Notes under the pieces: model-generated
Seen by the model: the letters and a program-made list of their open reading frames with translations, nothing else
Told to the model about the DNA's origin: nothing
The model's database searches: none
Made by a program: the position numbers and the translations under genes
In this document: in pieces, positions 5,585-50,377 of the stretch
Layout of the letters: each line of letters begins with the position of its first letter
How positions within the stretch are numbered: the stretch's first letter is position 1
DNA from: Mobula hypostoma
Taxonomy: Eukaryota
Length of the DNA stretch: 64,000 bases
Direction of reading: 5' to 3'
Assembly (NCBI RefSeq): GCF_963921235.1
Contig: NC_086097.1
Location: 372,001-436,000 of the forward strand

Positions 5585-6390
5585 AAACACAAGCACGAGG
5601 AAATCTGCAGATGCTGGAAATTCAAGCAACACACACAAAATGCTGGTGGAACGCAACAGAACAGGCAGCATCTATAGGAAGAGGTACAGTCGATGTTTCG
5701 GGCCGAGACCCCTCGTCAGGACGAACTGAAAGAAGAGATAGTAAGAGATTTGAAAGTAGGAGGGGGAGGGGATGATCCGAAATGATAGGAGAAGACAGGA
5801 GGGGGAGGGATGGAGCTAAGAGCTGGAAAATTAATTGGCAAAAGGGATACAAGGCTGGAGAAGGGAGAGGATCATGGGATGGGAGGCCTAGGGAGAAAGA
5901 AAGGGGGAGGGGAGCACCAGAGGAAGATATAGTGAGAGGGACAGAGGGAGAAAAAAGAGAGAGAAAGAAAGGGGGGTTAAATAAATAAATAAGGGATGGG
6001 GTAAGAAGGGGAGGAGAAGCATTAACAGAAGTTACAGAAGTCAATGTTCATGCCATTTGGTTGGAGGCTACCCAGATGGAATATAAGGTGTTGTTCCTCC
6101 AGTCTGGGTGTGGCTTCATCTTGACAGCAGAGGAGGCTGTGGATGGACGTATCAGAATGGGAATGGGACGTGGAATTAAAATGTGTGACCACTGGGAGAT
6201 CCTGCTTTCTCGGGCGGACAAAGCGTAGGTGTTCAGTGAAACGGTCTCTCAGTCTGCGTTGGGTCTCGCCAATATATAGAAGGCCGCATCGGGAGCACCG
6301 AATGCAATATATCACACCAGCCGACTCACAGGTGAAGTGTTGCCTCACCTGGAAGGACTGTCTGGAGCCCTGAATGGTGGTGAGGGAGGC
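5585..6390 (-). mobile_element. Penelope-like (Neptune-type) 3' fragment: GIY-YIG endonuclease plus pLTR
   Basis: ORF 6022-6480 contains FTCESAGVIYCIRCSRCGLLYIGETQRRLRDRFTEH. Same terminus as the 25076 element. Confidence 0.9.
5688..5723 (-). ncRNA. Minimal hammerhead ribozyme motif (stem III variant)
   Basis: Minus strand reads cgtc-CTGACGA-ggggtctcggccc-GAAA-catc-gact. Confidence 0.7.
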
Positions 6391-6579
6391 TTCCTGAATC
6401 AAACTCTTGATTAAATAGATCAGAGAAGAGTTGAGTAAGAGTCTTGTGTGCCTTTGCTTCTCTGAGAGACAAAGATGCATCTAATCATAAGTAGCATGTA
6501 GAGAAGTGTGAACTTGTATGTGAATTGATCTTTAGAAATACGCATTATTTAATTAGTTGTTGCTTTTGCTTCCTTACAG

Positions 6580-6640
6580 ATCCAGATGGCCCTGCCCAGT
6601 ATGTACGACATGGAGATGTAGTCAAGCTTGAACACAAAGA
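6580..6640 (+). CDS. POMT2: POMT2 internal exon, 61 bp
   Basis: ccttacag|AT...AAAGA|gtaagt. Encodes DPDGPAQYVRHGDVVKLEHK(E); phases are consistent with both neighbours. Confidence 0.95.
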
Positions 6641-6674
6641 GTAAGTTTTAAAGATGGGTTCTTTAACATGTAAT

Positions 6675-7797: not shown

Positions 7798-7859
7798 TTT
7801 CTTCTTCTAATATTAGTGATTCATCCTTACAGGCTGACATTTGATTTTATCTTTGCCAG

Positions 7860-7938
7860 GACATCACGGAATATGCACAGTCACCAGCACGAAGCACCTC
7901 TGACTAAGAAGCATTTCCAGGTCACAGGATATGGAATA
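7860..7938 (+). CDS. POMT2: POMT2 internal exon, 79 bp
   Basis: ttgccag|G...GGAATA|gtaagc. Encodes (E)[26 protein letters not shown]. Confidence 0.97.
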
Positions 7939-8439: not shown

Positions 8440-10490
8440 AGGAGCAGGGGGAAGTATTGGAAGATCGGTGATTATTGGTGTTCTGCCGGGGTCTGTACTG
8501 GGACCTCTGCTGTTTGTCATGTATATAATTGACCTGGATGTCATAGTCATAGTCATACTTTATTGATCCCAGGATGTTGTGGATAACGTAGATGACTGCA
8601 CAGAATACAGTGGGATATAGATCAGTTGCAATTATGGGTGGGGATAATGGCATAAAGTGAGGACATCGATTTAGGCCATTCAGCCCACCAAGTCTGCTCC
8701 GCCATTTCATCATGGCTGATACCGGATCCCATTCAACCCATACACCTGCCCTCTCAACATATCCATCAATGCCCCGACCAATCAGGAATCCATCAACTTC
8801 CGCTTTGAATATACCCACGGATTTGGCCTGCACCACAACATTTCACAGATTCGCCACGCTTTGGCTGAAAAAAATTCTTCTTTACTTCTGTTCTAAGAGG
8901 TCATCCCTCAGTTTTGAGGTTGTGCCATCTATTTCTGGATATCCCCACCAGAGGAAACATCATCTCCACAGCCACCTTATCCTGTCCTTTCAACATCGGG
9001 AGGTTTCAATGAGATCCCACGCATTTTTCTAAATTCCAGTGAGTACAGGCCCAGAGCTGCCAAACACTCCTTATATGTTAACCCCTTCATTCCTGGAATC
9101 ATGGCAGATGGAATTTAACTTAGCCAAATGTGAAGTGTTGCACCTTGGTAGATCAAATGTAAAGAGACAGTACACTGTTAGAGGCAAGACCCTTAAAAGT
9201 TTTGATGAGTAGAGGGATCTTGAGATCCAAGTTCATAGCTCCTTGAAAATGGCAATGTAGGTTGATAGGGTCGTTAAGAAGGCATATGTATGCTTGCATT
9301 TATTAGTTGAGACATTGAGCTCAAAAGTCAGGAAGTTAAGTTGCAGCTTTATAAAACTCTACTGAGGTGCATCTGGAGTAGTGCATTGTGGATGGATAGA
9401 TAGACATACTTTATTGATCCCAAGGGAAATTGGGTTTCGTTACAGTTGCACCAACTAAGAATAGAGTATAAATATAGCAATATAAAACCATAAATAATTA
9501 AGTAATAATATGTAAATTATGCCAGATGGAAATAAGCCCAGGACCAGCCTATTGGCTCAGGATGTCTGACCCTCCAAGGGAGGAGTTGTAAAGTTTGATA
9601 GCCACAGGCAGGAATGACTTCCTATGACGCTCAGTGTTGCACCTTGGTGGAATGAGTCTCTGGCTGAATGTGCCCAGCCAGTACATTATGTAGTGGATGG
9701 GAGACATTGTCCAAGATGGCAAGATGGAAGGATGTCAAGGCTTTGGGAGTGGACAGAAGAGCTTTATCAGGATTCCACCTGGATTAGATAGCATTTGCAA
9801 AAATGGGAGGTTGGACAAACTTGAATTGTTTTCTCTGGAGCGCAGACTCTGAGGGGAGATCTGATAGAAGTTTATAAGATTGAGAGGCATAGATAAAGTA
9901 GACAGATAAGACCATAAGACGAGGGAGCAGAAGTTGGCCATTCGGCCCATCGAGTCTGCTCCGCCATTTTATCATGAGCTGATCCATTCTCCCATTTAGT
10001 CCCACTCCCCCGCCTTCTCACCATAACCTTTGATGCCCTGGCTACTCAGATACCTATCAATCTCTGCCTTAAATACACCCAATGACTTGGCCTCCACTGC
10101 TGCCCGTGGCAACAAATTCCATAGATTCACCACCTTCTGACTAAAAAAATTTCTTCGCATTTCTGTTCTGAATGGTATCTTTTTTTCTGGGTTGATATAT
10201 AAGTGCATGCATTTAAGATGAGAGGGGGTAATTTTAAAGGAGGTGTGAAAGACAATTTTTTTCACACAGAGTAGTCGGTGCCTTGGGTTACCGTGATGGT
10301 GGAGAGGCAGGTATGTTTGAGACTTTTAGGAGATGTTTAGATGGGTTCATGAATGTGAATAAAATGGAGGGATATGGATATTGTCAAGAAAGGATTAATT
10401 TAACAGGGGATTTCATTACTGATTTATTTGGCTTGGCTGAGCATTGCGGGCTGAAGGGCTTGTTCCTGCGTTGTACTGTTCCACATTCTA
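8440..10490 (+). mobile_element. Old CR1 RT fragment with four nested insertions
   Basis: Host CR1 RT motifs are interrupted by a 30-bp Rex tail (8542-8571), a minus CR1 3' end (about 8653-9100, TSD atggca), a Rex 3' end (about 9393-9722) and a minus CR1 3' end (about 9906-10175). Confidence 0.75.
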
Positions 10491-10504: not shown

Positions 10505-12395
10505 TGGATGAGTGATGAGGTTCTGCATAGGGAGTTAGGTGCTAAGTTAAGGGCAGGACCTCCAGGACTGTGATCTCAGGATTGCTACTTGTGCCACATG
10601 CTAGTGAGGCCAGATCGAGGAAGATCCTTCAGTTGAAAAGGTATGACGTTGTGACCATCACTGAATCGTGGCTGAAGGACGATTGTACTTGGCAGCTGAA
10701 TGTCCAAGGTTTCATGTTATATCAGAGGGATAGGAAGGTAGGCAGATGTGGTGGTGGTGTGGCTGTCCTGGTAAAGAATGGCATCAAATCTGTAGAAAGA
10801 TGTGACACAGGATCAGAAGATGTTGAATCCTTGTGGATTGAGTTAAGAAACTGCAAGGGTAAAAGGATGTTGATGGCAGTTTTAGATGAATATTTTACGT
10901 CAGTCTTCACTGTGGAAGACTAGCAGTATGCCTGATGTTGTAGTGTGTGAAGGAAGTGGGTGCAGTTACTGTTACAAGAGAGAAGGTGCTCCAAAAGCTG
11001 AAAGACCTAAAAGGACATAAGTCACCTGGACTAGATGAACTGCGTCCTAGGATTCTGATAGAGATAGCATTAGAGATTATGGTGGCATTAGAAATGATCT
11101 TTCAAAAATCATTGGACTCTGGCATGGTGCCAAAGGACTGAAAAATTGCTAACGTTATTCCACTCTTTAAGAAAGGAGGAAGGCAGCAGAAAGGAAATTA
11201 TAGGCCAGTTAGCCGGACCTCAGTGGTAGGGAAGATGTTAGAGTCAATTGTTAAGGATGAGGTGATGGAGTACTTGGTGATACAGGACAAGATGGTACAA
11301 AGTCAGCTTGGTTTCCTTTAGGGAAAATCCTGCTTGATGAACTTGTTGGAATTCTTTGAGGAGATTACAAGTAGGATAGATAAAGAGGATGTAGTGGATG
11401 TTGTATATTTGGACTTTCAGAAGGCATTTGACAAGGTGTCACACATGAAGCTGCTTAATAAGTTATGAGCCCATGGTATTACAGGAAAGTTACTAACATG
11501 GTTAGAGCATTGGCTGATTGGTAGGAGGCAGTGAGTGGGAATAAAAGGATCCTTTTCTGGTTGGCTGCCAGTGACTAGTAGTGTTCCGCAAGGGTCGGTG
11601 TTGGAACCACTTCTTTTTATGCTGTATATAAATGATTTAGATGATGGAATAGATGGCTTTGTTGCCAAGTTTGCAGATGATATGAAGATTGGTGGAGGGG
11701 CAGGTAGTGTTGAGGAAACAGGATGTAGAAGGACTCAGACAGATTAGGAGAATGGACAAGAAAGTGGCAAATGAAACACAAATTTGGAAAATGCATGGCC
11801 ATGCACTTTGGTAGTAGAAATAAATGTGCCGGCTATTTTCTAAACAGGAAGAAAATCCAGGAATCTGAGATACAGAGGGACTTGGGAATCCTTGTGCAGA
11901 ACACCCTGAAGGTTAACTTGCAGGTTGAGTCGGTGGTGAGGAAGGCAAATGCCATGTCAGCAGTCATTTCAAGAGGTCTAGAATACAACACAGCAAGGAT
12001 GTGATGCTGAGGCTTTATAAGGCACTGGTGAGACCTCACCTTGAGTATTGTGGACAGCTTTAGGCCCCTCATCTTAGAAAAGATGTGCTGTGGCATTGGA
12101 AGGAATCCAGAGGAGGTTCACAAGGATGATTCCAGGAATGAAAGGGTTATCATATGACAAACATTTGATGGCTCTGAGTCCATACTCACTGGAATTCAGA
12201 AGGATGAGGGGCAATCTCATTGAAACCTTTTGAATGTTGAAAGGTCTAGACAGGGTAGATGTGAAAAGGATGTTTCCCATGGTTGGAGAGCTGAGGACAA
12301 GAGGGCACAGCCTCAGAATAGAGGGGCACCTTTTTCAAACAGAGATGTGGAGAAATTTCTTTAGCCAAAGGGTAACTGAATTTGTGGAATTTGTT
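10505..12395 (+). mobile_element. Internally deleted CR1 (ORF1 end, EN, RT)
   Basis: ORFs 10570-10923 (ITESW), 10947-11141, 11535-11747 (SVPQGSVL, KFADD), 11771-12004 and 12234-12452. Confidence 0.85.
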
Positions 12396-18344: not shown

Positions 18345-19144
18345 TAGGGTTAAACTCACATCAACATGTCTTTTACAGCTAGGGTTGCCAACTTTCTCAC
18401 TCCCAAATAAGGGACAAAAGTAGCAGTCAATTCCTGACGAAGGGTCCCGGCCCGAAACATCGACTGTACCTCTTCCTATAGATGCTCCCTGACCTCCTGC
18501 GTTCACCAGCATTTTTTGTGTGTGTTATGGTCATAGTCATAGTCATACTTTATTAATCCCGGGGGAAATTGGTTTTCGTTACAGCTGCTCCATAAATAAT
18601 AACTAGTAATAGAACCATAAATAGTTAAATAGTAATATGTAAATTATGCCAGTTGACGAGACTCTTATGTTTACCCCGAGAAAAAGTACCATGACCATGA
18701 AGCCTTGTGCGGGCACCTGTGTGCATGTGCGTGACGTTCGCATGTGTGACGTGTGCATGCGCGTATGTACCGATTTTTTTTCCCACAAATTGTTTTTGGC
18801 TTAATCTTCCCGACTACACTGTACATTCATTATTTCAACTTTATATAGGCTGTGTATTTATCATATCATTAATGCTTTTACTACATGTTAGTTATTTTAG
18901 GTTTTATGTGTTATTTGGTATGATTTGGTAGGTTATTTTATGGGTCTGGGAACGCTCAAAATTTTTTCCCATATAAATTAATGGTAATTGCTTCTTCGCT
19001 TTGAGCCATATCGGCACGAAAGGTTTCATAGGAACGCTCTACCTTAGTGGGGGAAATACACGACAAGGGCAGTCCCGTATGGGACAAACCAATTTAGCCC
19101 TGTATACGGGATGACCGGCAAATACAGGACTGTTAGCAACCCTA
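18345..19144. mobile_element. Non-autonomous hAT DNA transposon (inner)
   Basis: Ends tagggtt / aacccta. 8-bp TSD tgttcaag at 18337-18344 and 19145-19152. A longer TIR copy tagggttgccaac at 18380 matches gttagcaacccta. Confidence 0.85.
18432..18466 (+). ncRNA. Hammerhead motif at the 5' edge of a ~95-bp Penelope fragment
   Basis: tc-CTGACGA-agggtcccggccc-GAAA-catc-gactg. Stem I is mostly lost by truncation. Confidence 0.6.
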
Positions 19145-20999: not shown

Positions 21000-22040
21000 A
21001 GATGGCTTTGTTGCCAAGTTTGCACATGATACGAAGATTGGTGGGGGGTAAGAAGTGTTGAGGAAACAGGTAGACTGCCGAAGGACTTAGACAGATTAAG
21101 AGAATGGGCAAAAGAGTGGCAAATGAAATACAGTGTTGGAAAATGCACTTTGGTAGGAGAAGTAAATGTGCAGACTATTTTCTAAACGGAGAGAAAAGCC
21201 AAAAATCTGAGATGCAAAAGGACTTCGGAGTCCTTGTGCAGAACACCCTAAAGGTTAACTTGCAGGTAGAGTCTGGTGTGAGGAAGGCAAATGTAAAGTT
21301 AGCATTCATTTCAAGAGGTCTAATATTCAAGAGCAGCGATGTGATGCTGAGGCTTTATAAGGCACAGGTGAGGCCTCACCTTGAGTATCGTGAACAGTTT
21401 TGGGCTCATCATAGAAAAGATGTGTTGGCATTGGAGAGGGTTCAGAGGAGGCTTACAAGGATGATTCCAGGAATGAAAGGGTTATATGAGGAACATTTGA
21501 TAGCTCTTGGTCTGTACTTGCCGGAATTTAGAAGAATGAAGGGGGAATGGAATCTCGTTGAAACCTTTCGAATATTGAAATGCCTAAACAGAGTAGATGT
21601 GGAAAGGATGTTTCCCATGGCGGGGGAGTCTCGGACAGGAAGGCACAACCTCGGGATGGAGGGGTGTCCATTTCAAACAGAGATGTGGAGAAATTTCTTT
21701 AGGCAGAGGGCAGTGACTTTATGCAATTTATTTCCACAGGCAGCTATGGGGGCCAGGTCATTGGGTGTATATAAGGCAGAGTTTGATAGGTTCTTGATTG
21801 GTCATGGCATCAAAAGTTATGAGAAGGCCAGGGAAAGGGGCTGAGGAGGAGAAAAAAGAGTCAGCCATGATTGAATGGTGGAGAAGACTTCATGGGGTAA
21901 ATGGCCTAATTCTGCTCCTATGTCTTTTGGTCTTGTGGTCTTACGGAGATTGGAGCTGAGGGGGAAAAGTGGATCAGCCATGATGAAATGGTGGAGCAGG
22001 CTCTGGGCCAAGCGGCCTAATTTGCTCCTATTCGCTTACG
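21000..22040 (+). mobile_element. CR1 3' fragment followed by a second 3' UTR copy
   Basis: ORF 21104-21844. Two successive cagccatga...ggcctaat...gctccta 3' ends. Confidence 0.85.
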
Positions 22041-22117: not shown

Positions 22118-22269
22118 AATGGCACAGGGGATGCGAATGATTTCTGGAGAATTGAGGTGATTGGGGGACAGAATGGGGACCTGATTAAAGTCCTCAGGAG
22201 TAAAATTCGATTAATCCACGTGGCGACTGGCTGTGTTCTGTACTCTTCTGGGAAGTCATTGCCCAAGTG
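22118..22269 (+). CDS. POMT2: POMT2 internal exon, 152 bp
   Basis: tttacag|AAT...AAGTG|gtgagt. Encodes [50 protein letters not shown](W). Confidence 0.97.
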
Positions 22270-25173
22270 GTGAGTTTATTATTGGCTGATTAAAATAAGA
22301 GATTCAGCCCACTGGCTGATATCTGAAAAACATATGTGGGTGATGCTTGATATACGCACACTCACGAAGAAAAGCTGCTTGCTATACCTTTCAGAAAAGA
22401 TTGAAGGAGCAATCGTCCATTTTCCTATTTTAATTTTGGTTGTTTGAGTTCGATCACAATGAAGCCATAGAAGCCTTTGAACCCAATTTCCAATTAGTTC
22501 TTCAGTGGGAAAATGTTGTTATTCCTGCACCTAACCCGTCTTCACAGATATTAGAACAGTACAAGTGTTGTGCCGACCCATAAACCCTGCCTCCCATATA
22601 ACCCCCCACCTTAAATTCCTCCATGTACCTGTCTGGTAGTCTCTTAAACTTCACTAGTGTATCTGCCTCCACCACTGACTCAGGCAGTGCATTCCACGCA
22701 ACAACCACTCTCTTGAGTAAAACACTTCCTCTAATATCCCCCTTGAACTTCCCACCCGTTACCTTAAAGCCATGTCCTCTTGTAATAAGCAGTGGTGCCC
22801 TGGGGAAGAGGGGCTGGCTATCCACTCTTATCTATTCCTCTTATTATCTTGTACACCTCTATCATGTCTCCTCTCATCCTCCTTCTCTCCAAGGAGTAAA
22901 GCCCTAGCTCCCTTAATCTCTGATCATAATGCATACTCTCTAAACCAGGCAGCATCCTGGTAAATCTCCTCTGTACCCTTTCCAATACTTCCACATCCTT
23001 CCTATAGTGAGGCGACCAGAACTGGACACAGTACTCCAAGTGTGGCCTAACCAGAGTTTTATAGAGCTGCATCGTTACATCGCGACTCTTAAACTCTATC
23101 CCTCGACTTATGAAAGCTAACAACCCATAAGCTTTCTTAACTACCCTATCCACCTGTCAGGCAACTTTCAGGGATCTGTGGACATGTACTCCGAGATCCC
23201 TCTGCTCCTCCACATGACCAAGTATCCTGCCATTTACTTTGTACTCTGCCTTGGAGTTTGTCCTTCTAAAGTGTACCACCTCACACTTCTCCAGGTTGAA
23301 TCTATCTACCACTTCTCAGCCCACTTCTGCATCCTATCAATGTCTCTATGCAATCTTTGACAATCCTCTACACTATCCACAACACCAGCAACCTTTGTGT
23401 CATTTGCAAACTTGCCAACCCACCCTTCTACCCCCACATCCAGGTCGTTAATAAAAATCATGAAAAGTCGAGGTCCCAGAACAGATCCTTGTGGGACACC
23501 ACTAGTCACAACCCTCCAATCTGAATGTATTCCCTCCACCACGACCCTCGCCTTCTGCAGGCAAGCCAATTCTGAATCCACCTGGCCAAGCTTCCCTGGA
23601 TCCCATGCCTTCTGACTTTCTGAATAAGCCTACTGTGTGGAACCTTGTCAAATGCCTTACTAAAATCCATATAGATCACATCCACTGCACTACCCTCATC
23701 TGTATGCCTGGTCACCTCCTCAAAAAACTCTATCAGGGTTGTTAGACATGATCTGCCCTTCACAAAGCCATGCTGACTGTCCCTGATCAGACTATGGTTC
23801 TCTAAATGCCCATAGATCCTATCTCTAAGAATCTTTTCCAACAGCTTTCCCACCACAGACGTAAGGCTCACTGGTCTATAATTACCCGGACTATCCCTAC
23901 TACCTTTTTTGAACAAGGGGACAACATTCGCCTCCCTCCAATCCAACGGTACCATTCCCATGCACCACGAGGACATAAAGATCCTAGCCAGAGGCTCAGC
24001 AATGTCTTCCCTCGCCTCGTGGAGCAGCCTGGGGAATATTCCATCAGGCCCAGGGGACTTACCCGTCCTAATGTATTTTAACAACTCCAACACCTCCTCT
24101 CCCTTAATATATTTTTTTTAATTTTATTTTTATTTGGATAAGGAATTCACAAATATGTACTTTTTTCACACATATAACCTTTTCCATTTTTTTATATGTA
24201 TAAAACTATAATTATTTATACATTCTTAAGTATACATACAAAAGAAAATTAGACACTTAAATAGATAATTATGTACTGTGGTAATTCTAATCTATTAGGC
24301 TAAGTAATGGTATTAGTTGTTAAGAAAAATGGTAATAATAGTTTCCATATTACTCTCCTGGACCATTTCCACTGGTCCAAAATGTTGTATGTAAGCCTAT
24401 GTAACAACCATTGTAGGTGTTTATATCCTAATTTGTTCATGCTTGCTCCTGCCCGCAGACATAATTATCCAATCCCTATGTACTTATTTACTTAATTTTT
24501 CCATTTTTTATCCCTTTCCCAAATCTTTCCCTTTACTTGTGTTAATTCTCTATTTTCCAAAAGAAAACAAAAAAAAAGACATTTAGACTAGGGGTGCTTA
24601 CGTTAGCAATATGACTGTGTTGATGAGAAGAGCAGTATAAATCATTAGGAGAGTCATCTGAAGTCTGCTCGCATTGGGGTTATATATTCAATCCATTTAT
24701 TCCAGATTTGATAAAATTTTTCTTTTTGAATTCTCAGGGAGTAAGTCAACTTTTCCATTTTAAATATTTCCAAGATAATTTCGTGCCAATCTTCTAATGT
24801 AGATGGTATTGGATTTAGCCACTTTCTAGTGACTGATTTCTTACTTGCCGCTAAGAGGGCCTGCAGCAACTTTATATCTTCCTTCTGTTCAAGAAACAAT
24901 ACATGCCCCAAATAGAGCGTCTCAAAGTTCAGAGGTATCTGGGACCTAAGTACCTTAACTAATGTTCTAGGAATACCTTCCCAATATAGACTTAATTTAG
25001 GGCAATCCCAGAAAATATGAAAATGATTTGCCTCCTTGGAGCCACACCTTCTCCAACGCATCACGTTTGTATCTTAAACAACAGGAATTCTGCAGATGCT
25101 GGAAATTCAAGCAACATACATCAAAGTTGCTGGTGAATGCAGCAGGCCAAGCAGCATCTATAGGAAGAGGTGC

Positions 25174-25209
25174 AGTCGACGTTTCAGGCCGAGACCCTTC
25201 GTCAAGACT
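25174..25209 (-). ncRNA. Minimal hammerhead ribozyme motif (C3U variant)
   Basis: Minus strand reads agtc-TTGACGA-agggtctcggcct-GAAA-cgtc-gact. Confidence 0.75.
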
Positions 25210-28200
25210 AACTGAAGGAAGAGTGAATAAAGGATTTGAAAGTTGGAGGGGGAGGGGGAGATCCAAAATGATAGGAGAAGACAGGAGGGGGAGGGATAGA
25301 GCCGAGAGCTGGACAGGTGATAGGCAAAAGGGGATACGAGAGGATCATGGGACAGGAGGTCCGGGAAGAAAGACAAGGGGCGGGGGGTTGACCCAGAGGA
25401 TGGGCAAGAGGTATATTCAGAGGGACAGAGGGAGAAAAAGGAGAGTGAGAGAAAGAATGTGTGCATAAAAATGAGTAACAGATGGGGTACGAGGGGGAAG
25501 TGGGGCCTTAGTGGAAGTTAGAGAAGTCGATGTTCATGCCATCAGGTTGGAGGCTACCCAGACGGAATATAAGGTGTTGTTCCTCCAACCTGAGTGTGGC
25601 TTCATCTCCACAGTAGAGGAGGCCGTGGACAGACATGTCAGAATGGGAATGAGATGTGGAATTAAAATGTGTGGCCACTGGGAGATCCTGCTTTCTCTGG
25701 CGGACAGAGCGTAGATGTTCAGCAAAGCGGTCTCCCAGTCTGCGTCGGGTCTCACCAATATATAAGAGGCCACATCGGGAGCACCGGACGCAGTATATCA
25801 CCCCAGTCGACTCACAGGTGAAGTGATGCCTCACCTGGAAGGACTGTTTGGGGCCCTGAATGGTGGTAAGGGAGGAAGTGTAAGGGCATGTGTAGCACTT
25901 GTTCCGCTTACACGGATAAGTACCAGGAGGGAGATCAGTGGGGAGGGATGGGGGGGACGAATGGACAAGGGAGTTGTGTAGGGAGCGATCCCTGCGGAAT
26001 GCAAGGGGGGGAGGGAAAGATGTGCTTAGTGGTGGGATCCCGCTGGAGGTGGCGGAAGTTACGGAGAATAATATGTTGGACCCGGAGGCTGGTGGGGTGG
26101 TAGGTGAGGACCAGGGGAACCCTATTCTTAGTGGGGTGGCGGGAGGATGGAGTGAGAGCAGATGTACGTGAAATGGGGGAGATGCGTTTAAGAGCAGAGT
26201 TGATAGTGGAGGAAGGGAAGCCCCTTTCTTTAAAAAAAGAAGACATCTCCCTCGTCCTAGAATGAAAAGCCTCATCCTGAGAGCAGGTGCGGCGGAGACG
26301 GAGGAATTGCGAGAAGGGGATGGCGTTTTTGCAAGAGACGGGGTGAGAAGAGGAATAGTCCAGATAGCTGTGAGAGTCAGTGGGCTTATAGTAGACATCA
26401 GTGGATAAGCTGTCTCCAGAGACAGAGACAGAAAGATCTAGAAAGGGGAGGGAGGTGTCGGAAATGGACCAGGTAAACTTGAGGGCAGGGTGAAAGTTGG
26501 AGGCAAAGTTAATAAAGTCAACGAGTTCTGCATGCGTGCAGGAAGCAGCGCCAATGCAGTCGTCGATGTAGCGAGGGAAAAGTGGGGGACAGATACCAGA
26601 ATAGGCACGGAACATAGATTGTTCCACAAACCCAACAAAAATGCAGGCATAGCTAGGACCCATACGGGTGCCCATAGCTACACCTTTAGTTTGGAGGAAG
26701 TGGGAGGAGCCAAAGGAGAAATTATTAAGAGTAAGGACTAATTCCGCTAGACGGAACAGAGTGGTGGTAGAGGGGAACTGATTAGGTCAGGAATCCAAAA
26801 AGAAGCGTAGAGCTTTTAGACCTTCCTGATGGGGGATGGAAGTATATTAAGGACTGGACATCCATGGTGAAAATAAAGCGGTGGGGGCCAGGGAACTTAA
26901 AATCATCAAAAAGTTTAAGAGCGTGAGAAGTGTCACGAACATAGGTTGGAAGGGATTGAACAAGGGGTGATAAAACAGTGTCGAGGTATGCAGAAATGAG
27001 TTCGGTGGGGCAGGAGCAAGCTGAGACAATAGGTCGGCCAAGACAGGCAGGTTTGTGGATCTTGGGTAGGAGGTAGAAACGGGAAGTGTGGGGTGTGGGA
27101 ACTATAAGGTTGGTAGCAGTGGATGGGAGATCCCCTGAGCAGATAAAGTCGGTGATGGTGTGGGAGACAATGGCCTGGTGCTCCTTAGTGGGGTCACGAT
27201 CGAGGGGTAAATAAGAGGAGGTATCCGCGAGTTGTCGCTGTGCCTCGGCAAGGTAGAGGTCAGTACGCCAGACTACAACAGCACCCCCCTTATCGGCGGG
27301 TTTAATAATAAGGTTAGGATTAGTGCGGAGGGAGTGGAGAGCAGAGCGTTCCGAAGGAGTGAGGTTGGAATGGGGACAAGGTGCGGTGAAGTCGAGACGG
27401 TTGATGTCCCGTCGGCAGTTAGCAATAAAGAGATCCAGAGCAGGCAGAAGACCAGAGCGGGGTGTCCATGAAGAAGAGGAGGGTTGAAGACGGGAGAAGG
27501 GGTCATCGGTAGGGGTGGAAGAGTCCTTGCCGAAGAAGTAGGCTCGGAGACGGAGACGGCGGAAGAAAAGTTCCGCATCGTGGCGAACACGGGACTCGCT
27601 GAGGTGTGGGCGAAGGGGGACAAACGTGAGGCCCTTACTGAGAACAGAGCGTTCTGCCTCCGACAGTTGAAGGTCGGAGGGGATGGTAAAGGCCCGGCAC
27701 GGATGACAGCTGGGATCAGAGGAGGGAGGGGGGAGGGGGGAGGCTGGTGGTGTCAGTGGAGAGGGGAGGGTTGGGGTGAGAGGAAGATGGAGCCTCTGAG
27801 GGCCCAGGAGTTGACGGTGGGATCTGAGGAAGACTCTGCATTCCGCAGGGATCGCTCCCTACACAACTCCCTTGTCCATTCGTCCCCCCCATCCCTCCCC
27901 ACTGATCTCCCTCCTGGCACTTATCCGTGTAAGCGGAACAAGTGCTACGCATGCCCTTACACTTGCTCCCTTACCACCATTCAGGGCCCCAAACAGTCCT
28001 TCCAGGTGAGGCATCACTTCACCTGTGAGTTGACTGGGGTGATATACTGCGTCCGGTGCTCCCGATGTGGCCTTTTATATATTGGCGAGACCCGACGCAG
28101 ACTGGGAGACCGCTTTGCTGAACATCTACGCTCTGTCCGCCAGAGAAAGCAGGATCTCCCAGTGGCCACACATTTTAATTCCACATCCCATTCCCATTCT

Positions 28201-28626
28201 GACATGTCTATCCACGGCCTCCTCTACTGTAGAGATGAAGTCACACTCAGGTTGGAGGAACAACACCTTATATTCCGTCTGGGTAGCCTCCAATCTGATG
28301 GCATGAACATCAACTTCTCTAACTTCCGCTAAGGCCCCACTTCCCCCTCGTACCCCATCTGTTACTCATTTTTATGCACACATTCTTTCTCTCACTCTCC
28401 TTTTTCTCCCTCTGTCCCTCTGAATATACCTCTTGCCCATCCTCTGGGTCACCCCCCCCTTGTCTTTCTTCCCCGACCTCCTGTCCCATGATCCTCTCGT
28501 ATCCCCTTTTGCCTATCACCTGTCCAGCTCTTGGCTCTATCCCTCCCCCTCCTGTCTTCTCCTATCATTTTGGATCTCCCCCTCCCCCTCCTACTTTAAA
28601 ATCCCTTACTCACTCTTCCTTCAGTT

Positions 28627-28662
28627 AGTCCTGACGAAGGGTCTCGGCCTGAAACGTCGACT
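28627..28662 (+). ncRNA. Minimal type I hammerhead ribozyme motif, intact core
   Basis: agtc-CTGACGA-agg gtctcgg cct-GAAA-cGTC-gact. Stem I is agtc/gact, stem II is agg/cct, the palindrome ACGT replaces stem III, and the cleavage triplet is GUC (28656-28658). Confidence 0.85.
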
Positions 28663-31600
28663 GCACCTCTTCCTACAGATGCTGCTTGGCCTGCTGCGTT
28701 CACCAGCAACTTTGATGTATGTTGCTTGAATTTCCAGCATCTGCAGAATTCCTGTTGTTTTCTGAAAGTACCAACCCCACTTCTTTCTCCCACTTCTCTT
28801 TAATATACAGTGTATTTACATTTTTAGCATGGGAGAGTGCATTATATACTCGAGAAACTGATTTACCAGGTATTGAACTGCAAGCTGAATTCAGAATCTT
28901 GAAAAATTCTAATTCTACTGTTGATAGGTCTGTATATCTACAACTCTGGTTAACATAGTTTCGTACTTGAAGGTACCTGAAAAAGTCATTATGTTCTTGG
29001 CCATGTTTGTCCTGCAGGATTTGGAAACTTTGTAATACTCTTTTATCTATAAATGAGAGGTAGGTTGTAAGACCTTTCTTTATCCATAGCTCAAATCTTT
29101 TATCTCCTCTGTTGGGAAGGAATTCGGTATCATATGCACACCATCTAAAAAGTTTTAACATGTTATTAATTCCACATGAATTAACCACCTTCTGCCATAC
29201 TTTTAATGTAAGATTTATCCAACTGTTTTTAAATTTTTCCAACTGGGCCATCAATCCTTTATCAGCTATTGAGGCCTGTAGAGGAAAACTGTCAACTAAT
29301 CCAAATTCTATTTCCTTCCATCTAGCCTTATATTCCCTATTACACCAATATAACAGAGGGGTTATCTGTGAGGCATAAAAATAATTTCTCAGGCAAGGAA
29401 GAACCATACTCCTCCTTCCTTCCCTAACTGTAAGGTGTTATGTTGAATTCTAGGTTTCTTTCCTTGCCAAATGAAGCGGGAAATCCAATTGTCCCATTCC
29501 CTGAATTGATTATCATCCACCTCTACCGGTAAAGTATGGAAAAGATACAATAACCGAGGAAGAATATTCATTTTTATAGTATTTATCCTTGAATTTAAAC
29601 TTAAAAAGGGGATAAGATTCCATCTATGCATATCTGCTTTTATCTCTGAGATTAATGGCCCATAATTTACCTGTGACAGTGTTGAAAGATCCTTCGGCAG
29701 GGTTATTCCTAAATATTTTAATGATTTAGCTTCCCACTTAAGATCGTATGTATCCTGCAATTTTTTGGATGGTGTATAATTTAGGGACATAAGCTGCGTT
29801 TTCTTTACATTTATTTTATAACCTGATATTTTCCCAAAGTCATCCAACAGTGTAAACGATCCTATAAATGATTTTTCTGGTTCACTCAGATAGACCAAAA
29901 CATCATCTGCGAATAACGCCACTTTCTGTTCAATCCCTGCCACCTTGATACCTTTTACGATTTCGCTCTGTCTTATTAGTTGGGCAAGCAGTTCAATATA
30001 TAGCGCAAAAAGGAGAGGAGAAATTGGGCATCCCTGTCTAGTGCCTCTCTCTAAGATGAAGGAGTCAGAGAGGTCCCCATTTATCTTAATTCGGGCTGTA
30101 GGGCTGTCATATAGAGTCTGAATTACTTTAATAAACTTTTCTTGAAAGCCGAATCTTCCTAACACTCTGTATAGGAATGCCCAACTAACCGAATCAAAAG
30201 CTTTCTCAACGTCCAATCCTACTACCATTGTCTCTGTCTCGTTCTTATTAACCTGTTCTAATATGTGCAGAGTTCTCCTTATGTTGTCCTGTGTTTGTCT
30301 TTGTTGAATAAATCCAGTCTGGTCTAAGTGGATTAGGCCAGGTAAAAGCTTTTCCAATCTACATGCTAATATAGATGTAAATAGTTTGTAATCTAAATTA
30401 AGAACACTAATTGGCCGATAATTGCCACATTCCAGTTTATCTTTACCCTCTTTAGGAATAACTGAAATAATCGCTTCTCTCCAGGAAGGTGGAGTTTCTC
30501 CTCTCTGCAAGATCCAATTAAAGGTGTTAAGTAGTAATGGGGCTAACTGTGTCTTCAGGGACTTAAACCACTTTGAGGTAAACCCATCAGAACCCGGGGA
30601 CTTTCCAGCCTTTAACCTAGAGATGGCCACGTTCAGTTCTTTGACAGTTACTGGTTCTAATAAACTTTCATTTTGTAAATCTGTAAGTTTAGGTAGATCT
30701 AAAAAATTCGATACACTGTCTATATAGGGCTCATTGGGGGCCCGGGGTTGGGAGTACAGCTCTCGATAATATGTTTCAAAACTCTCTTGAATTTTCCCTC
30801 TTGTACTCTCCACAAGCTTTGTCTTTGGATTCTTTATTTTATGAATTGTATTGTCTGCTTGTTGTTTTCGTAATTTATATGCTAATAATCTAGCTGATTT
30901 ACCTCCTACTTCATAATTCTTTTGTCTCAGGTAAAGAAAATTTCTTTGAGTTTCCAACGTATAAATATCATCATTTCACTTTGCAATTTCCTAATTTCCT
31001 GTTTACGATTTGAATTACTTTTGTTGCTATCTCCAACTTGAAGTTGTTTTAATTTTCCTCGAAGGTCTGCTAATTTTTGTGCATTGATTTTTTTCATGTG
31101 AGTGGTAATGGAAATAATTTTCCCTCTCAGTGCAGCTTTCAATGTATCCCATAAGATCACTGGTGATGTTTCTCCCGTGTCATTAAGGTCCAGATATTCT
31201 TTGATTTCTCCCCTTAATCTCTCCATTACTTTCGGGTTATTGAGTATATGAGAGTTTAGCCTCCATAGTGTTTTCCTCATTTTCCTTTCCAGGATTAGAG
31301 ACATAGAGACTGGGCTATGATCCGACAGATCAGTTGTTGCAATATTACAGTTTTTTATCCTGAGTCTATCTGTATTAAAGATAAAGAAATAGTCTATCCT
31401 TGAATAGGCTGAATGAGGGAAAGAGTAATGTGTATAATCTTTACTAGTAGGGTGTAATTCCCTCTAGACATCTATAATTCCCAACTCCCTCATCAATGAA
31501 TTCATTTTCCGAGTCAGAGATTTATTCTGAGTAACTATTCTTGAAGAATCTAATACAGGATTTAATCTAATATTAAAATCCCCTCCACAAATTACTACCC

Positions 31601-37887: not shown

Positions 37888-37979
37888 GGGATGGGAGCAG
37901 GTTGAAGTCAGCTGTAGTCCTTACCTTAAAGAAACCCCCAACTCGTTGTGGAACACTGAGGATCATATTAATGCCAAAT
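37888..37979 (+). CDS. POMT2: POMT2 internal exon, 92 bp
   Basis: tctgcag|G...AAAT|gtaagt. Encodes (W)[30 protein letters not shown]. Confidence 0.97.
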
Positions 37980-41703: not shown

Positions 41704-41958
41704 TAAATTGCTGGAGGAACTCAGCAGACCAAACATCATCTATGGAGGTAAAAGGATGGTTAACATTTCATATCAAGAGCCTGTTCCAGCCTGTCTTGTA
41801 TTAGTGTAATTCCTTTCAGTTCTCAGGATAGACAAAAACACTTAATGGCTTTTTTTGTCTGTCCTCAGAAAAAAGGAATTATGTAAGTACAAGTGTTTTA
41901 TTCAGATGTGCATGTTCCAAAAATCTGGATATATGTAACTTTAATATAATCATTTCAG

Positions 41959-42035
41959 TGCCGAATATCAGCCTGGAGGTGTTGAAACCATCATTCTCTG
42001 AGATACTACTGGAATCTCATGTCGTCATGATACGG
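41959..42035 (+). CDS. POMT2: POMT2 internal exon, 77 bp
   Basis: catttcag|TG...ATACGG|gtcagt. Encodes (L)PNISLEVLKPSFSEILLESHVVMIR. Confidence 0.97.
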
Positions 42036-42939
42036 GTCAGTAGTTTTTTTTCTTTACATTATATCCTGACTGAACTTATTTCAGCACATTATGTAGTCCA
42101 CTGAATAATTGTTAATGCTGGACTGCAAGGCACCCAGTCTCCGATTTACTCTTACAGCTAACTACCACATCTATGAGCTTACTAACCCATCCATCCACAT
42201 TGTCAGCTGTGAACTTTTAAACCCAGCCACCCGCATTGTTACTCAATGGAGCATATATGGACATGAAAGTATAAAGGGCAGTGAACTCAGGGAGGAAAAT
42301 GTTTACTGTCCGGACCATGTAGACATAAAAAGGGGGAGATGTTTATGTCTTTGAACACATAATGATGAAGGTGGACTGGATGTGATGGAAATGGAATTTG
42401 GTAAAGCATTTGACAAGGTTCCCCATGGCAGGCTCATTTTGGATACTTGGCTGTGTGGATTTGGAATTGGTTTGCCTGCCAGTAGTAGCAGATGGAACAT
42501 TTTCTAACTGGAGGTCAGTGTCTAGTGTGTTCCACAGGAATCGTTTTGGGACCCCTGCTCTTTGTGATTTCTATACTTGACTTGGATGAGGAAGTGAAAA
42601 GGTGGAACAGTAAGTTTGAAGATGATGCAAAGGTTGGTGGTGCTGTGGAAAGTGTAGAAGGGTAAAAATCACAAAGAGCAGGGGTCCTAGGACAGATCCT
42701 TGTGGCACTCCACCAGTCACCGACCTCCAGGCAGAATACTTTCCTTCCACTACTACCCTCTGCTTTCTTCCTGCAATCCAATTTTTTATCCAAATAGCCA
42801 AGGTTCCACTGATCCCATGCCTCATGACTTTCTGGATGAGTCTCTCCTGGGGGACCTTGTCAAATGCCTTGCTAAAATCCATGTAGATCACATCAACTGC
42901 CCTACCCTCATCAATTTCTTTTGTTACCTCTTCAAAAAA

Positions 42940-44196: not shown

Positions 44197-44772
44197 AGAC
44201 CACACCTGGAGTATTGTGTGTGCAGTTTTGGTCCCCTAATCTGAGGAAAGACATCTTTGCCATAGAGGGAGTACAAAGAAGGTTCACCAGATTGATTCCT
44301 GGGATGGCAGGACTTTCATATGAAGAAAGACTGGATGAACTGGGCTTGTACTCGTTGGAATTTAGAAGATTGAGGGGGGATCTGATTGAAACGTATTAAG
44401 ATCCTAAAGGGATTGGACAGGCTAGATGCAGGAAGATTGTTCCCGATGTTGGGGAAGTCCAGGACGAGGGGTCACAGTTTGAGGATAGAAGGGAAGCCTT
44501 TTAGGACCGAGATTGGGAAAAACTTCTTCACACAGAGAGTGGTGAATCTGTGGAATTCTCTGCCACCGCAAACTGTTGAGGCCAGTTCATTGGCTATGTT
44601 TAAGAGGGAGTTAGATATGGCCCTTGTGGCTACAGGGGTCAGGGGGTATGGAGGGAAGGCTGGGGCGGGGTTCTGAGTTGGATGATCAGCCATGATCATA
44701 ATAAATGGCGGTGCAGGCTCAAAGGGCCGAATGGCCTACTCCTGCACCTATTTTCTATGTTTCTATGTTTCT
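44197..44772 (+). mobile_element. Young CR1 3' fragment
   Basis: ORFs 44214-44676, (tttctatg)n tail, TSD atatg at 44192-44196 and 44773-44777. Confidence 0.9.
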
Positions 44773-49730: not shown

Positions 49731-50377
49731 CAACACAAAATAATCTGCAGATGCTGTGATCAAAGCAACACTCCAACAAGTTGGAGAATTCTATGTTCAT
49801 ACCAAGGGGCTGGAGACTACCTAGACGGTAGGTGTTGCTCCTCCAACCTGAGTTTAGCCTCATCATCGCAGTAGAGAAGGCCACGTATGGACATATCTGA
49901 ATGGGAGTGGGAAGCAGAGTTGAAGTGGGTGGCTGCTGGGGGATCCTGTCTGTTTTGGCGGACAGAGCGGAGGTGCTCAACGAAGCAGTCCCCCAATCTG
50001 CATCTGGTTTCACCGACGTAGAGGAGGCCGCACCGGGAGCACCGGATGCAACAGATGACCCCAACAGACTCACAAGTGAAGTGTTGTCTCACCTGGAAGG
50101 ACTGTTTGGGGCCCAAGAGATGAGGTGTGGGGACAGGTGTAGCACTTACGCTTACAGGGATAAGTGCCAGGTGGGAGATCAGTGGGGATGGACGTGCGGA
50201 TAAGGGAGTCGCGGAGGGACCGATCCCTGCGGAAAGCGGAGAGGGGTGGAGAGGGAAAGATGTGCTTAGTGGTGGGGTCCTTTTGAAGGTGGCAGAAGTT
50301 GTGGAGGATAATGTGCTGGATCCGGAGGCTAGTGGGGTGGTAGGTAAGGACAAGGGGAACTCTGTCCCTGTTGTGGT
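49731..50377 (-). mobile_element. Penelope-like fragment of a second subfamily, internally deleted
   Basis: GIY-YIG in ORF 49817-50353 (CIRCSRCGLLYVGET). The terminus aatctgcagatgctg joins the ORF end directly, so the ribozyme region is missing. Confidence 0.85.

What the first reader, a model, noticed from the sequence alone, without database searches (positions are those of the whole stretch)
25076..28760. Penelope element with about 925-bp inverted arms forming a giant hairpin in POMT2 pre-mRNA
Seen: 25076-26003 and 27837-28760 are near-perfect reverse complements around a 1.8-kb RT-coding spacer. Each arm holds the Cys linker, the GIY-YIG domain, the 3' UTR and a hammerhead. Established: Penelope-like elements can carry inverted pLTRs. 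Inference: host transcription yields long dsRNA, a possible ADAR or Dicer substrate and a silencing trigger for the family, and pairing of the arms would mask the sense ribozyme.
Basis: partly seen in the sequence, partly recalled or inferred. Interest (0 to 1): 0.7.

Follow-up and report, generated by a model that had tools for sequence, protein, structure and literature searches.

The report
Head-to-head dead Penelope-like retroelement pair
Two broken copies of a very abundant jumping gene lie head to head inside an intron of a ray's POMT2 gene, an arrangement that is typical of this kind of jumping gene and has no shown effect on the host.

Summary
The inverted repeat is real. 25076-26003 and 27837-28760 are 97.1% complementary (23 mismatches, one 4-nt indel). 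They lie in a 15.6-kb POMT2 intron, with the gene on the + strand. It is not one element with inverted LTRs. It is two 5'-truncated copies of a young Penelope-like element (PLE) family, joined head to head with 3' ends outward. The family gave 6023 first-look candidates, about 98% alike. Its CX4CxxC linker points to the Neptune/Nematis type, not Penelope proper. An inverted 5'-truncated partner is a published PLE hallmark, and 8 of 20 sampled family copies here have one. This pair is atypical for its family. Ten of 10 other pairs have a 10-15-nt target duplication and one 37-nt tail. This pair has two tails, no duplication and 119 nt of the target LINE missing, and its arms carry different subfamily markers. 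Arm divergence therefore cannot date the insertion. A minimal hammerhead core is intact in the right arm and mutated (C3 to U) in the left; Rfam finds neither. The arms could form about 910 bp of RNA duplex, but editing and small RNAs could not be tested. The idea that inverted Penelope repeats yield siRNAs is already in print for Drosophila. Verdict: ordinary, with a small mechanistic curiosity.

The parts
25076..27834 (-). Longer PLE copy (2759 nt), 5'-truncated and dead. It encodes part of the N-terminal region, RT, Cys linker and GIY-YIG EN, then an about 430-nt 3' UTR with a mutated minimal hammerhead and a 37-nt tail.
   Evidence: ORF fragments lie in three frames. Motifs read from the translation are DKG (KPADKGGAVVV), YIDD, CKRNKCYTC and VIYCVRCSRCGLLYIGET. 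Indels private to this copy against 5 other near-full copies are 7 nt at 27723-27729, 1 nt at 26848, and a shortened C/TC tract at 26004. Other copies extend at least 192 nt, and one ORF extends about 0.67 kb further 5'.
27834..28760 (+). Short inverted PLE copy (about 925 nt), 5'-truncated within the RT-EN junction. It holds the Cys linker, GIY-YIG EN, 3' UTR, an intact minimal hammerhead core and a 37-nt tail.
   Evidence: The family alignment at the junction shows the copy starting at CTCTGCATTCC, with 1 nt (27834) shared with the other copy.
25076..26003 (.). Left arm of the inverted repeat (antisense to POMT2).
27837..28760 (.). Right arm of the inverted repeat (sense to POMT2).
28626..28663 (+). 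Minimal type-I hammerhead motif. As read here it has helix I TAGTC/GACTG, core CTGACGA, helix II GGGT-CTCG-GCCT, GAAA, the palindrome ACGT, and cleavage triplet GTC.
   Evidence: The pattern matches once in the window. The structure was read by eye against the features listed by Cervera & De la Pena 2014. Diverged copies keep the core, and one helix II pair changes on both sides in two of them. There is no Rfam match.
25173..25210 (-). The same hammerhead motif in the left arm, with core C3 changed to U (A at 25205 on the + strand, where the right arm's copy has G in the same orientation).
   Evidence: At this site 30 of 31 other copies have C.
25076..25112 (-). 37-nt 'tail' at the 3' end of the longer copy.
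   Evidence: Tail-less partners in other loci end at about 33-41 nt before this end.
28724..28760 (+). 37-nt 'tail' at the 3' end of the short copy. A second tail is unusual: 0 of 10 other pairs have two.
24654..25075 (-). Downstream part of the target, a young L1-like LINE (C-terminal ORF2 region).
28761..31463 (-). Upstream part of the same LINE (RVT_1 E 1.1e-44). 119 nt of the LINE are missing between the two parts.
22118..22270 (+). POMT2 exon upstream of the intron that holds the pair.
   Evidence: tblastn with ray POMT2 proteins, 94-100% identity.
37889..37978 (+). Next POMT2 exon downstream.

Best explanation
The structure is a dead, head-to-head pair of two 5'-truncated copies of a young, very abundant endonuclease-bearing Penelope-like retroelement of Neptune/Nematis linker type. 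It sits in an L1-like LINE inside a 15.6-kb intron of POMT2. The most likely origin is one integration event in which both DNA ends at a break in the target primed reverse transcription from the 3' region of two separate element RNAs. The two incomplete cDNAs were then joined at their inner ends with 1 nt of overlap, and 119 nt of target were lost (inferred). The inverted arms are a by-product of how these elements integrate, not a host device. When the intron is transcribed, the arms can pair into a long imperfect RNA duplex. That duplex would be an ordinary candidate substrate for dsRNA-binding enzymes, like any inverted repeat pair in an intron. No effect on POMT2 or on the element family is shown.
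For: PLE identity. The longest sampled family ORF has RT then GIY-YIG in that order (RVT_1 E 1.3e-4, GIY-YIG E 1e-3, both below their cut-offs). 650 homologues at E<=1e-10 were found; nearly all of the 120 listed are annotated with PF00078 and about a quarter also with PF01541. The DKG, YIDD, CX4CxxC and Cys-between-GIY-and-YIG motifs were read against the definitions in Craig et al. 2021.

Family abundance and youth. The first look gave 6023 candidates, and the 40 scored matches to the whole arm were 97-100% identical, the window's own arm included.

The head-to-head partner is a family habit. 8 of 20 sampled copies have an abutting inverted 5'-truncated partner. 10 of 10 other pairs (the 8 plus 2 incidental short pairs) carry a 10-15-nt target duplication at both outer borders, so each is one event; the random control had mean 4.8 and maximum 9. 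Craig et al. 2021 describe the inverted 5'-truncated copy and the 30-40-bp tail.

Two-strand priming. Frangieh et al. [quoted passage not shown]

Two RNAs. The right arm carries the linked markers 374A/395A, found in 10 of 33 copies, while the left arm has G/G.

One locus. Both flanks belong to one LINE copy, and 119 nt are absent compared with 7 of 7 intact LINE copies.

Duplex potential: RNAduplex gives -1943.7 kcal/mol and 910 pairs.
Against: This pair departs from the family's own rule in three ways: it has two tails, no target duplication, and a 119-nt target loss. A single canonical event is therefore excluded, and the 'one event at a break' reading is inference. The arms are less alike (97.2%) than 88% of 514 between-locus pairs, which would also fit two separate insertions. 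Pfam scores for RT and EN are below the curated cut-offs, and the homologues found are unnamed or 'uncharacterized', so PLE membership rests on motifs and architecture. No Rfam hammerhead family matches. The sample of 20 loci is the top of a score-ranked list and requires a full 928-nt 3' end with tail, so the 8-of-20 figure is not an unbiased genome rate.
Confidence: 0.8

Rival explanations
1. Two independent insertions of the family, in opposite orientation and about 119 bp apart in the LINE, were followed by a deletion. The deletion removed the inner parts of both copies, their inner target duplications and the 119 nt between them.
For: Both arms have the tail that normally marks one end per event (0 of 10 other pairs have two). 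There is no target duplication. The arms carry different subfamily markers and show below-average identity. 119 nt of target are missing.
Against: This needs three events, including two hits within 119 bp in a 3.48-Gb genome (size). At least one other pair with a normal target duplication (L012) also has arms of different subfamilies, so mixed arms do not require two events. The junction is clean, with 1 nt of overlap and no leftover target sequence.
Confidence: 0.15
2. One reading: the intronic hairpin is a working source of long dsRNA that is edited by ADAR or diced into small RNAs and so triggers silencing of the family, and arm pairing hides the sense ribozyme.
For: The arms could form about 910 bp of RNA duplex with perfect runs up to 123 bp, on the transcribed strand of an intron. 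For Penelope introduced into D. melanogaster, siRNAs were reported to map precisely to inverted regions of rearranged copies (Evgen'ev 2013, PMC3681739, passages read).
Against: Nothing was measured at this locus. With thousands of copies about 98% alike, the contigs laid could not be assigned to it. The 33 aligned copies show no excess of A>G over T>C among private changes (11 against 11) and no copy with a cluster of them, so there is no footprint of edited templates. The pair is one of many: 8 of 20 sampled copies are paired, so this locus has no special standing. Minimal PLE hammerheads are described as dimer-dependent and weakly active, so masking one copy would change little.
Confidence: 0.1
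3. Assembly artefact: a false fold-back, or a mis-join between two repeat copies.
For: Craig et al. 2021 note that complex PLE insertions cause assembly problems, especially in short-read assemblies. No laid record spans the stretch.
Against: The arms differ at 23 sites plus an indel and carry different subfamily markers, unlike a fold-back chimera. Both outer flanks are the same LINE copy in the same orientation, 119 nt apart in LINE coordinates. The same architecture recurs at 8 of 20 other loci with target duplications.
Confidence: 0.03

Closest known systems
Canonical endonuclease-bearing Penelope-like element insertion units (pLTR, adjacent inverted 5'-truncated copy, 30-40-bp tail), as described by Craig et al. 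2021 (PMC8557442; passages read) citing Evgen'ev & Arkhipova 2005 and Arkhipova 2006
   Same: There is an inverted 5'-truncated copy directly at the 5' end of a longer copy, with 3' ends outward. [quoted passage not shown]
   Different: There is no direct pLTR at this locus (0 direct repeat families). Both ends carry the tail, and 119 nt of target are deleted instead of duplicated. The family's other pairs follow the described pattern.
Neptune / Nematis clades of EN+ PLEs (CX2-5CxxC linker upstream of GIY-YIG)
   Same: The linker CKRNKCYTC fits CX2-5CxxC, and the CCHH-type cysteines lie between GIY and YIG.
   Different: No phylogeny was built, so clade membership rests on the linker alone.
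PAc (Poseidon of Anolis carolinensis) in vitro system, Frangieh et al. 2024 (PMC11167929; main text read)
   Same: Cleavage and extension of both target strands, and internal initiation at two adjacent sites whose spacing equals the tail, would give head-to-head copies with or without tails.
   Different: That work is in vitro and on another clade. In vitro, no difference in start site between the strands was seen. Here 10 of 10 ordinary pairs have exactly one tail.
Minimal hammerhead ribozymes of metazoan PLEs, Cervera & De la Pena 2014 (PMC4209133; text read)
   Same: The core boxes, short helix I (5 bp), absence of helix III with palindromic 15.2-16.2 (ACGU), location in the terminal repeat, and occurrence on opposite strands close together all match.
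   Different: As read here the 10.1-11.1 pair is G-U rather than the highly conserved G-C. Activity is untested. The left-arm copy has C3 changed to U.
Inverted Penelope repeats as siRNA sources in transformed Drosophila melanogaster, Evgen'ev 2013 (PMC3681739; passages read)
   Different: That case is an insect with a Dicer-2 pathway and had measured small RNAs. Here the host is a cartilaginous fish and nothing was measured.
L1 twin priming / 5' inversions, and inverted Alu pairs as ADAR substrates
   Same: Both DNA ends at the target serve as primers, and intronic inverted repeats form edited duplexes.
   Different: Twin priming inverts a different part of one RNA. Here both arms copy the same 3' region, and in this pair they come from different subfamilies.

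Membership tests
EN+ Penelope-like elements (canonical, C-terminal EN) | A single ORF with RT followed by a C-terminal GIY-YIG endonuclease | tested here: met
   The longest sampled family ORF (1027 aa stop to stop) has RVT_1 at residues 512-650 (E 1.3e-4) and GIY-YIG at 900-974 (E 1e-3), both below Pfam cut-offs. YIDD and the GIY...YIG core were read. The window's copy shows the same order in three broken frames.
EN+ Penelope-like elements (canonical, C-terminal EN) | CCHH motif with two cysteines between GIY and YIG (Craig et al. 2021) | tested here: met
   VIYCVRCSRCGLLYIGET, followed by AEH, THF and SHSH, in both arms. This was read by eye, not scored.
EN+ Penelope-like elements (canonical, C-terminal EN) | DKG motif N-terminal of the RT core | tested here: met
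   KPADKGGAVVVW in the minus copy and in L019.
EN+ Penelope-like elements (canonical, C-terminal EN) | RT clade sister to telomerase RT (phylogeny) | not tested
   No tree was built. phmmer of two ORF fragments against PDB chains gave no RT match.
EN+ Penelope-like elements (canonical, C-terminal EN) | Partial tandem forming a direct pseudo-LTR | tested here: not met
   No direct repeat families were found in 23000-31000. Among the 20 sampled loci, one (L023) shows a partial direct copy next to the seed. This feature is frequent in PLEs but not obligatory for a single insertion.
EN+ Penelope-like elements (canonical, C-terminal EN) | Inverted 5'-truncated copy adjacent to the 5' end | tested here: met
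   for the window; 8 of 20 sampled copies.
EN+ Penelope-like elements (canonical, C-terminal EN) | Optional 30-40-bp tail, often at one end only | tested here: met
   A 37-nt tail is present at both ends here. It is at exactly one end in 10 of 10 other pairs.
EN+ Penelope-like elements (canonical, C-terminal EN) | Variable-length target-site duplication | tested here: not met
   The window pair has no duplication (6-nt chance word away from the borders) and lacks 119 nt of target compared with 7 of 7 intact LINE copies. The 10 other pairs have 10-15 nt.
Neptune / Nematis clades | CX2-5CxxC Zn-finger-like linker between RT and EN | tested here: met
   CKRNKCYTC (left arm) and CKRNKCYAC (right arm).
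Penelope/Poseidon clade | Absence of the CX2-5CxxC linker | tested here: not met
   The linker is present, so the element is not filed under Penelope/Poseidon.
Hammerhead ribozyme (Rfam families) | Match to a curated covariance model | tested here: not met
   No match at gathering scores over the window, and none among the 5 matches at E<=10 over 24800-29000.
Minimal hammerhead of metazoan PLEs (Cervera & De la Pena 2014) | Core boxes CUGANGA, GAAA and a UH cleavage site in type-I order | tested here: met
   Right arm 28631-28658 is the one match in the window, with 0.00 expected. The left arm has U at C3.
Minimal hammerhead of metazoan PLEs (Cervera & De la Pena 2014) | [quoted passage not shown] | tested here: inconclusive
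   The extra A and the palindrome ACGU are present. As read by eye, 10.1-11.1 is G-U rather than G-C. In 8 diverged copies, one helix II pair changes on both sides in two of them and two wobble pairs become Watson-Crick in others. That is too few sequences for a formal test.
Minimal hammerhead of metazoan PLEs (Cervera & De la Pena 2014) | Self-cleavage | not testable with these tools
   This needs an in vitro or in vivo cleavage assay.
dsRNA substrates of ADAR / Dicer | Long intramolecular duplex in a transcribed RNA | tested here: inconclusive
   The duplex potential was computed (910 pairs) and the position in an intron of an annotated gene was shown. Transcription and folding in vivo were not shown.
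dsRNA substrates of ADAR / Dicer | A-to-G clusters against matched DNA, or 21-30-nt small RNAs over the arms | not testable with these tools
   Only multi-copy contigs were available, and none could be assigned to the locus.

The most novel reading that the evidence does not exclude
The window's pair may be a genomic footprint of a second, non-canonical integration route for Penelope-like elements. In this route two element RNPs, or one dimer carrying two different RNAs, each start first-strand synthesis at the tail site on opposite ends of a double-strand break. That gives two tails, loss of target sequence and arms of mixed subfamily. Separately, about 40% of the sampled copies of a family with thousands of members are head-to-head pairs. 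Ray introns may therefore hold thousands of hairpins of several hundred to about 2000 bp per arm, a large and unexplored pool of endogenous dsRNA in a cartilaginous fish.
Probability: 0.3. Interest if true: 0.45.

Novelty: new member of a known kind. Interest (0 to 1): 0.2.

Why it matters
As an object it is ordinary: a dead retroelement pair in an intron, of a kind already described for Penelope-like elements. Its modest value is mechanistic. Within one very young family the ordinary pairs follow a strict pattern of one tail and a 10-15-nt duplication. Some pairs have arms from different subfamilies, which argues that the two arms are copied from two RNA molecules rather than by fold-back copying of one cDNA. 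The window's pair breaks the pattern in a way that points to priming at both ends of a break. A genome-wide census in this ray could turn these hints into in vivo support for the two-strand priming seen in vitro. For POMT2 itself, nothing suggests an effect.

Tried and rejected
Rfam gave no hammerhead at gathering scores or at E<=10; the five weak matches (MIR2118, PrrB_RsmZ twice, sR40, CRISPR-DR36) are chance-level.

Sequencing runs: no listed holder is on record as RNA. Four runs served as contigs were laid. They are swamped by other copies of the two repeat families, no listed piece spans the stretch, and the joints and 'other letters' reflect family variation. Nothing could be said on expression, editing, small RNAs or long-read support at this locus. 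The loose ends agree only that 25076 and 28760 are family termini, and that intact LINE copies continue at 28761.

Arm divergence as a clock was rejected, because the arms carry different subfamily markers and are no closer than random copy pairs.

An ADAR footprint in copies was looked for: private A>G equals T>C (11 each) and no copy has a cluster.

A sense-strand excess of non-CpG C>T (41 against 8 G>A) shrinks to p=0.04 after correcting for base composition, so it was not pursued.

Terminal redundancy: the 5' 192 nt of a longer copy has no match in the 3' region.

POMT1 versus POMT2 by PDB matches: the C1 exons match yeast Pmt2 better than Pmt4 (47.3 against 25.3 bits), but the paralogue's short exon gave no clear preference. 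The question was settled by source names instead.

PDB sequence searches with two RT-region fragments found nothing useful.

The homologue search gave only unnamed or 'uncharacterized' proteins, so it could not name the clade.

A second batch of 19 family loci could not be fetched, so the survey rests on 20 loci.

Near-place notes of this scan: none.

Full report
OBSERVATION. The inverted repeat is real and lies at the stated coordinates. The repeat finder reports arms 25382-26003/27837-28458 (622 nt, 98% complementary) and 25076-25384/28452-28760 (309 nt, 97%), which are one repeat split by an indel. A global alignment gives 928 columns with 23 mismatches (18 transitions, 5 transversions) and one 4-nt indel in a C/G run, or 97.1% identity. 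The longest perfect runs are 123, 101 and 81 nt. The 1833-nt spacer is coding sequence of the minus-strand copy.

WHAT IT IS. On the minus strand, three overlapping open-frame fragments (26782-27858, 25935-26786, 25508-26437) read in turn through several motifs: an N-terminal region with KPADKGG (the DKG motif), an RT core with YIDD, a cysteine linker CKRNKCYTC, and a GIY-YIG core VIYCVRCSRCGLLYIGET. On the plus strand, 27472-28332 repeats the linker and the GIY-YIG part. Pfam sees GIY-YIG in both arms only below its cut-off (E 9e-4 and 6e-4).

The longest open frame among sampled family copies is 1027 aa stop to stop. It has RVT_1 (E 1.3e-4) followed by GIY-YIG (E 1e-3), again below cut-offs. 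It has 650 homologues at E<=1e-10. Nearly all of the 120 listed are annotated with PF00078 and about a quarter also with PF01541, but all are unnamed or 'uncharacterized'.

Measured against the definitions in Craig et al. 2021 (PMC8557442, passages read), the architecture is that of a canonical endonuclease-bearing Penelope-like element. The CX2-5CxxC linker is stated there to be present in Neptune and Nematis and absent in Penelope/Poseidon. The element is therefore 'Penelope-like' in the broad sense, not Penelope proper. No tree was built.

TWO COPIES, NOT ONE ELEMENT. Alignment with other family copies shows that the plus-strand copy starts at CTCTGCATTCC (27834-27837 onward). The minus-strand copy starts at GTCTTCC (27834 downward). 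The two are therefore joined with a single shared nucleotide and no filler.

Other copies continue at least 192 nt further 5' than the minus copy. One has an open frame reaching about 0.67 kb further. Both copies in the window are thus 5'-truncated, with 3' ends pointing outward.

The minus copy also has indels private to it against 5 other near-full copies: 7 nt at 27723-27729, 1 nt at 26848, and a shortened, family-variable C/TC tract at 26004. The contigs laid also show that many family members lack one letter at 26847. It is a dead copy. Among the 5 other near-full copies the longest frames as cut were 413, 559, 710, 731 and 867 aa.

THE FAMILY. The host genome has 3.48 Gb in 200 contigs, and the window is C1:372001-436000. 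A search with the left arm gave 6023 first-look candidates. The 40 scored matches to the whole arm (the window's own arm among them) are 97-100% identical, and two shorter matches are 98%. The window's own right arm was not among the listed matches.

I fetched the first 20 other places with 10 kb each. A second batch of 19 could not be fetched. In 8 of the 20 (L005, L012, L013, L014, L017, L018, L020, L022) the seed copy has an inverted 5'-truncated partner abutting its 5' end. For L014 the apparent 169-nt gap is filled by the seed's own 5' extension. One locus (L023) shows a partial direct copy, and the other 11 have no abutting partner. Two further short head-to-head pairs turned up incidentally in L005 and L012.

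The sample is the top of a score-ranked list and requires a complete tailed 3' end, so 8 of 20 is not an unbiased rate. Craig et al. [quoted passage not shown] They also state that a 30-40-bp tail is often present at only one end. The observed architecture is therefore a published hallmark of these elements.

HOW THIS PAIR DIFFERS FROM ITS OWN FAMILY. In all 10 other pairs the two outer flanks share a 10-15-nt word right at both borders, which is a target-site duplication. Random 38-mers gave a mean of 4.8 and a maximum of 9 in 500 trials. In all 10, one arm ends with the 37-nt tail and the other ends about 33-41 nt earlier. An eleventh pair seen only in the hit table, on contig C71, also has one arm ending 33 nt short.

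The window's pair has the tail at both ends and no duplication; its best shared word is 6 nt and lies away from the borders. Its two flanks are parts of one young L1-like LINE on the minus strand, whose ORF2 matches RVT_1 at E 1.1e-44. That LINE family gave 1275 first-look candidates at about 98% identity. In 7 of 7 intact LINE copies, 119 nt lie between the two flank ends. The insertion therefore went with a 119-nt target loss.

ARM RELATEDNESS. I polarised the 23 substitutions between the arms against 31 other copies. Nine are changes of the left arm and 14 of the right arm. Two of the right arm's states (374A and 395A) are perfectly linked markers, carried by 10 of 33 aligned copies.

Over the shared region the arms are 97.2% identical. 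That is lower than 88% of 514 between-locus pairs, whose mean is 98.07%. Among the 8 other pairs, three (L005, L013, L014) are much more alike than background (99.1-99.6%) and share rare markers. One (L012) has clearly different subfamily arms despite a normal target duplication. The rest are near background.

Two conclusions follow. First, arm divergence cannot date this insertion. Second, at least some pairs are copied from two different RNA molecules, which argues against fold-back copying of a single cDNA as the general route.

MECHANISM (inferred). Frangieh et al. 2024 (PMC11167929, main text read) report three things about a purified PLE protein. [quoted passage not shown] It initiates reverse transcription internally at two adjacent sites, and the sequence between those sites corresponds to the genomic tail. 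It is predicted to be a dimer.

Ordinary pairs here fit priming on both strands at staggered nicks, which gives a 10-15-nt duplication. For the window's pair I infer that both ends of a break primed tail-site initiation on two RNAs of different subfamily. I infer that 119 nt of target were lost and the cDNAs were joined at 1 nt of overlap.

The rival reading is two independent insertions 119 bp apart followed by an internal deletion. It explains the same features but needs three events. I rate it at about 0.15.

HAMMERHEAD. No Rfam family matches. Read against the features listed by Cervera & De la Pena 2014 (PMC4209133, text read), the right arm has a minimal type-I motif. It reads: helix I TAGTC/GACTG, core CTGACGA, an extra A, helix II GGGT/GCCT closed by CTCG, GAAA, the palindrome ACGT, and the triplet GTC. 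The core pattern occurs once in the 64-kb window, with 0.00 expected.

The 10.1-11.1 pair is G-U rather than the usual G-C. In the left arm the core C3 is U, whereas 30 of 31 other copies have C. Frangieh et al. report that a change at C3 (C3G) abolishes cleavage in their element; the effect of C3U here is untested.

Eight diverged copies (76-94% identical) mostly keep the core. One helix II pair changes on both sides in two of them. That is suggestive but too few for a test. The paper describes these motifs as probably dimer-dependent and weakly active in vitro.

HOST GENE. PMT-domain exons lie on the + strand of contig C1 at 260.7, 300.8 and 329.0 kb, and a PMT_4TMC exon lies at 453.8 kb. 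The window therefore lies inside the gene. The exon at 329 kb is 96-98% identical to proteins that NCBI names protein O-mannosyl-transferase 2 in rays (Mobula, Hemitrygon, Hypanus) and 72-84% identical to those of other rays, a skate and sharks.

tblastn of three of these proteins places exons in the window at about 1093-1363, 6576-6641, 7858-7938, 22118-22270, 37889-37978, 41955-42044, 59727-59804 and 61097-61198, all on the + strand. The pair lies in the 15.6-kb intron between 22270 and 37889. It is 2.8 kb from the upstream exon and 9.1 kb from the downstream one. Both arms are in the same intron, so they do not bracket an exon.

dsRNA. In the + strand transcript the arms can form 910 pairs (RNAduplex -1943.7 kcal/mol), and 8 of the 23 mismatches become G-U wobbles. 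This is potential only. Runs holding the stretch were found, but none is on record as RNA. The four runs laid are contigs dominated by other family copies. Transcription, editing, small RNAs and long-read support therefore remain untested.

Private changes in 33 aligned copies show A>G equal to T>C (11 each) and no hyper-edited copy. The idea that inverted Penelope repeats give dsRNA and siRNAs is in print for transformed D. melanogaster (Evgen'ev 2013, PMC3681739, passages read).

VERDICT. This is a new member of a known kind and of low interest. A modest mechanistic curiosity remains in the two-tailed, duplication-less, mixed-subfamily nature of this particular pair.

Noticed in passing
window 5598-6389 (-), 49778-50363 (-), 18432-18526 (+): Older fragments related to the same PLE (82%, 76.5% and 84% identity to the young copy). 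The first keeps a hammerhead core with CTGACGA, and its helix II closing pair is changed to G-C.
   Followed up: partly
window 24654-25075 and 28761-31463 (-): The target is itself a young L1-like LINE. Its ORF2 matches RVT_1 at E 1.1e-44, the family gave 1275 first-look candidates, and the 40 scored were about 98% identical. Two young retroelement families have therefore been active in this genome at similar times.
   Followed up: partly
window 22818-24117 (-): Another LINE-type RT remnant (ORFs with YRPVSLTSVVGKLLE and FADDTK-like motifs) lies directly downstream of the POMT2 exon at 22118-22270. It was not classified.
   Followed up: no
L005 1369-1557, L012 6008-6326, L013 2787-2918, L016 6166-6287, L021 330-458, L023 4418-4554; window 18432-18526: Many short (about 95-170 nt) copies or conserved blocks begin between query positions 2593 and 2633, six of the nine right at the hammerhead (2628-2633), and run to the 3' end. 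Some are 75-78% identical, so only this 3' module is conserved across diverged families, or a short non-autonomous derivative exists. A 2026 preprint titled 'Animal retrozymes are non-autonomous sequences of Penelope-like elements' appeared in the search listing only and was not read.
   Followed up: no
33 aligned copies of the 928-nt 3' region (window arms plus L005-L024): Private substitutions on the element's sense strand are skewed to C>T (51, of which 41 are non-CpG) over G>A (17, of which 8 are non-CpG). After allowing for the C-rich strand, the skew is weak (binomial p=0.04). If real, part of the between-copy divergence would arise during copying rather than after insertion.
   Followed up: partly
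window 554-652, 2429-2527, 8904-8996, 12234-12326, 21566-21664, 44398-44493, 53618-53698, 61603-61701: The last about 30 residues of one annotated ray POMT2 isoform (P0007, residues 735-768) match eight scattered places on both strands of the window at 45-68% identity. That annotated C-terminus looks repeat-derived.
   Followed up: no
contig C1 260.6-454 kb (window = 372-436 kb): POMT2 spans at least 193 kb here, with exons tens of kb apart and introns filled with young retroelements.
   Followed up: partly
L019 ORF: The closest named relatives of the PLE protein, after a shark (68-71% identity), are in marine invertebrates (a crinoid, a sea urchin and gastropods, 45-51% identity). Many environmental and transcriptome entries lie at 43-56%.
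   Followed up: no
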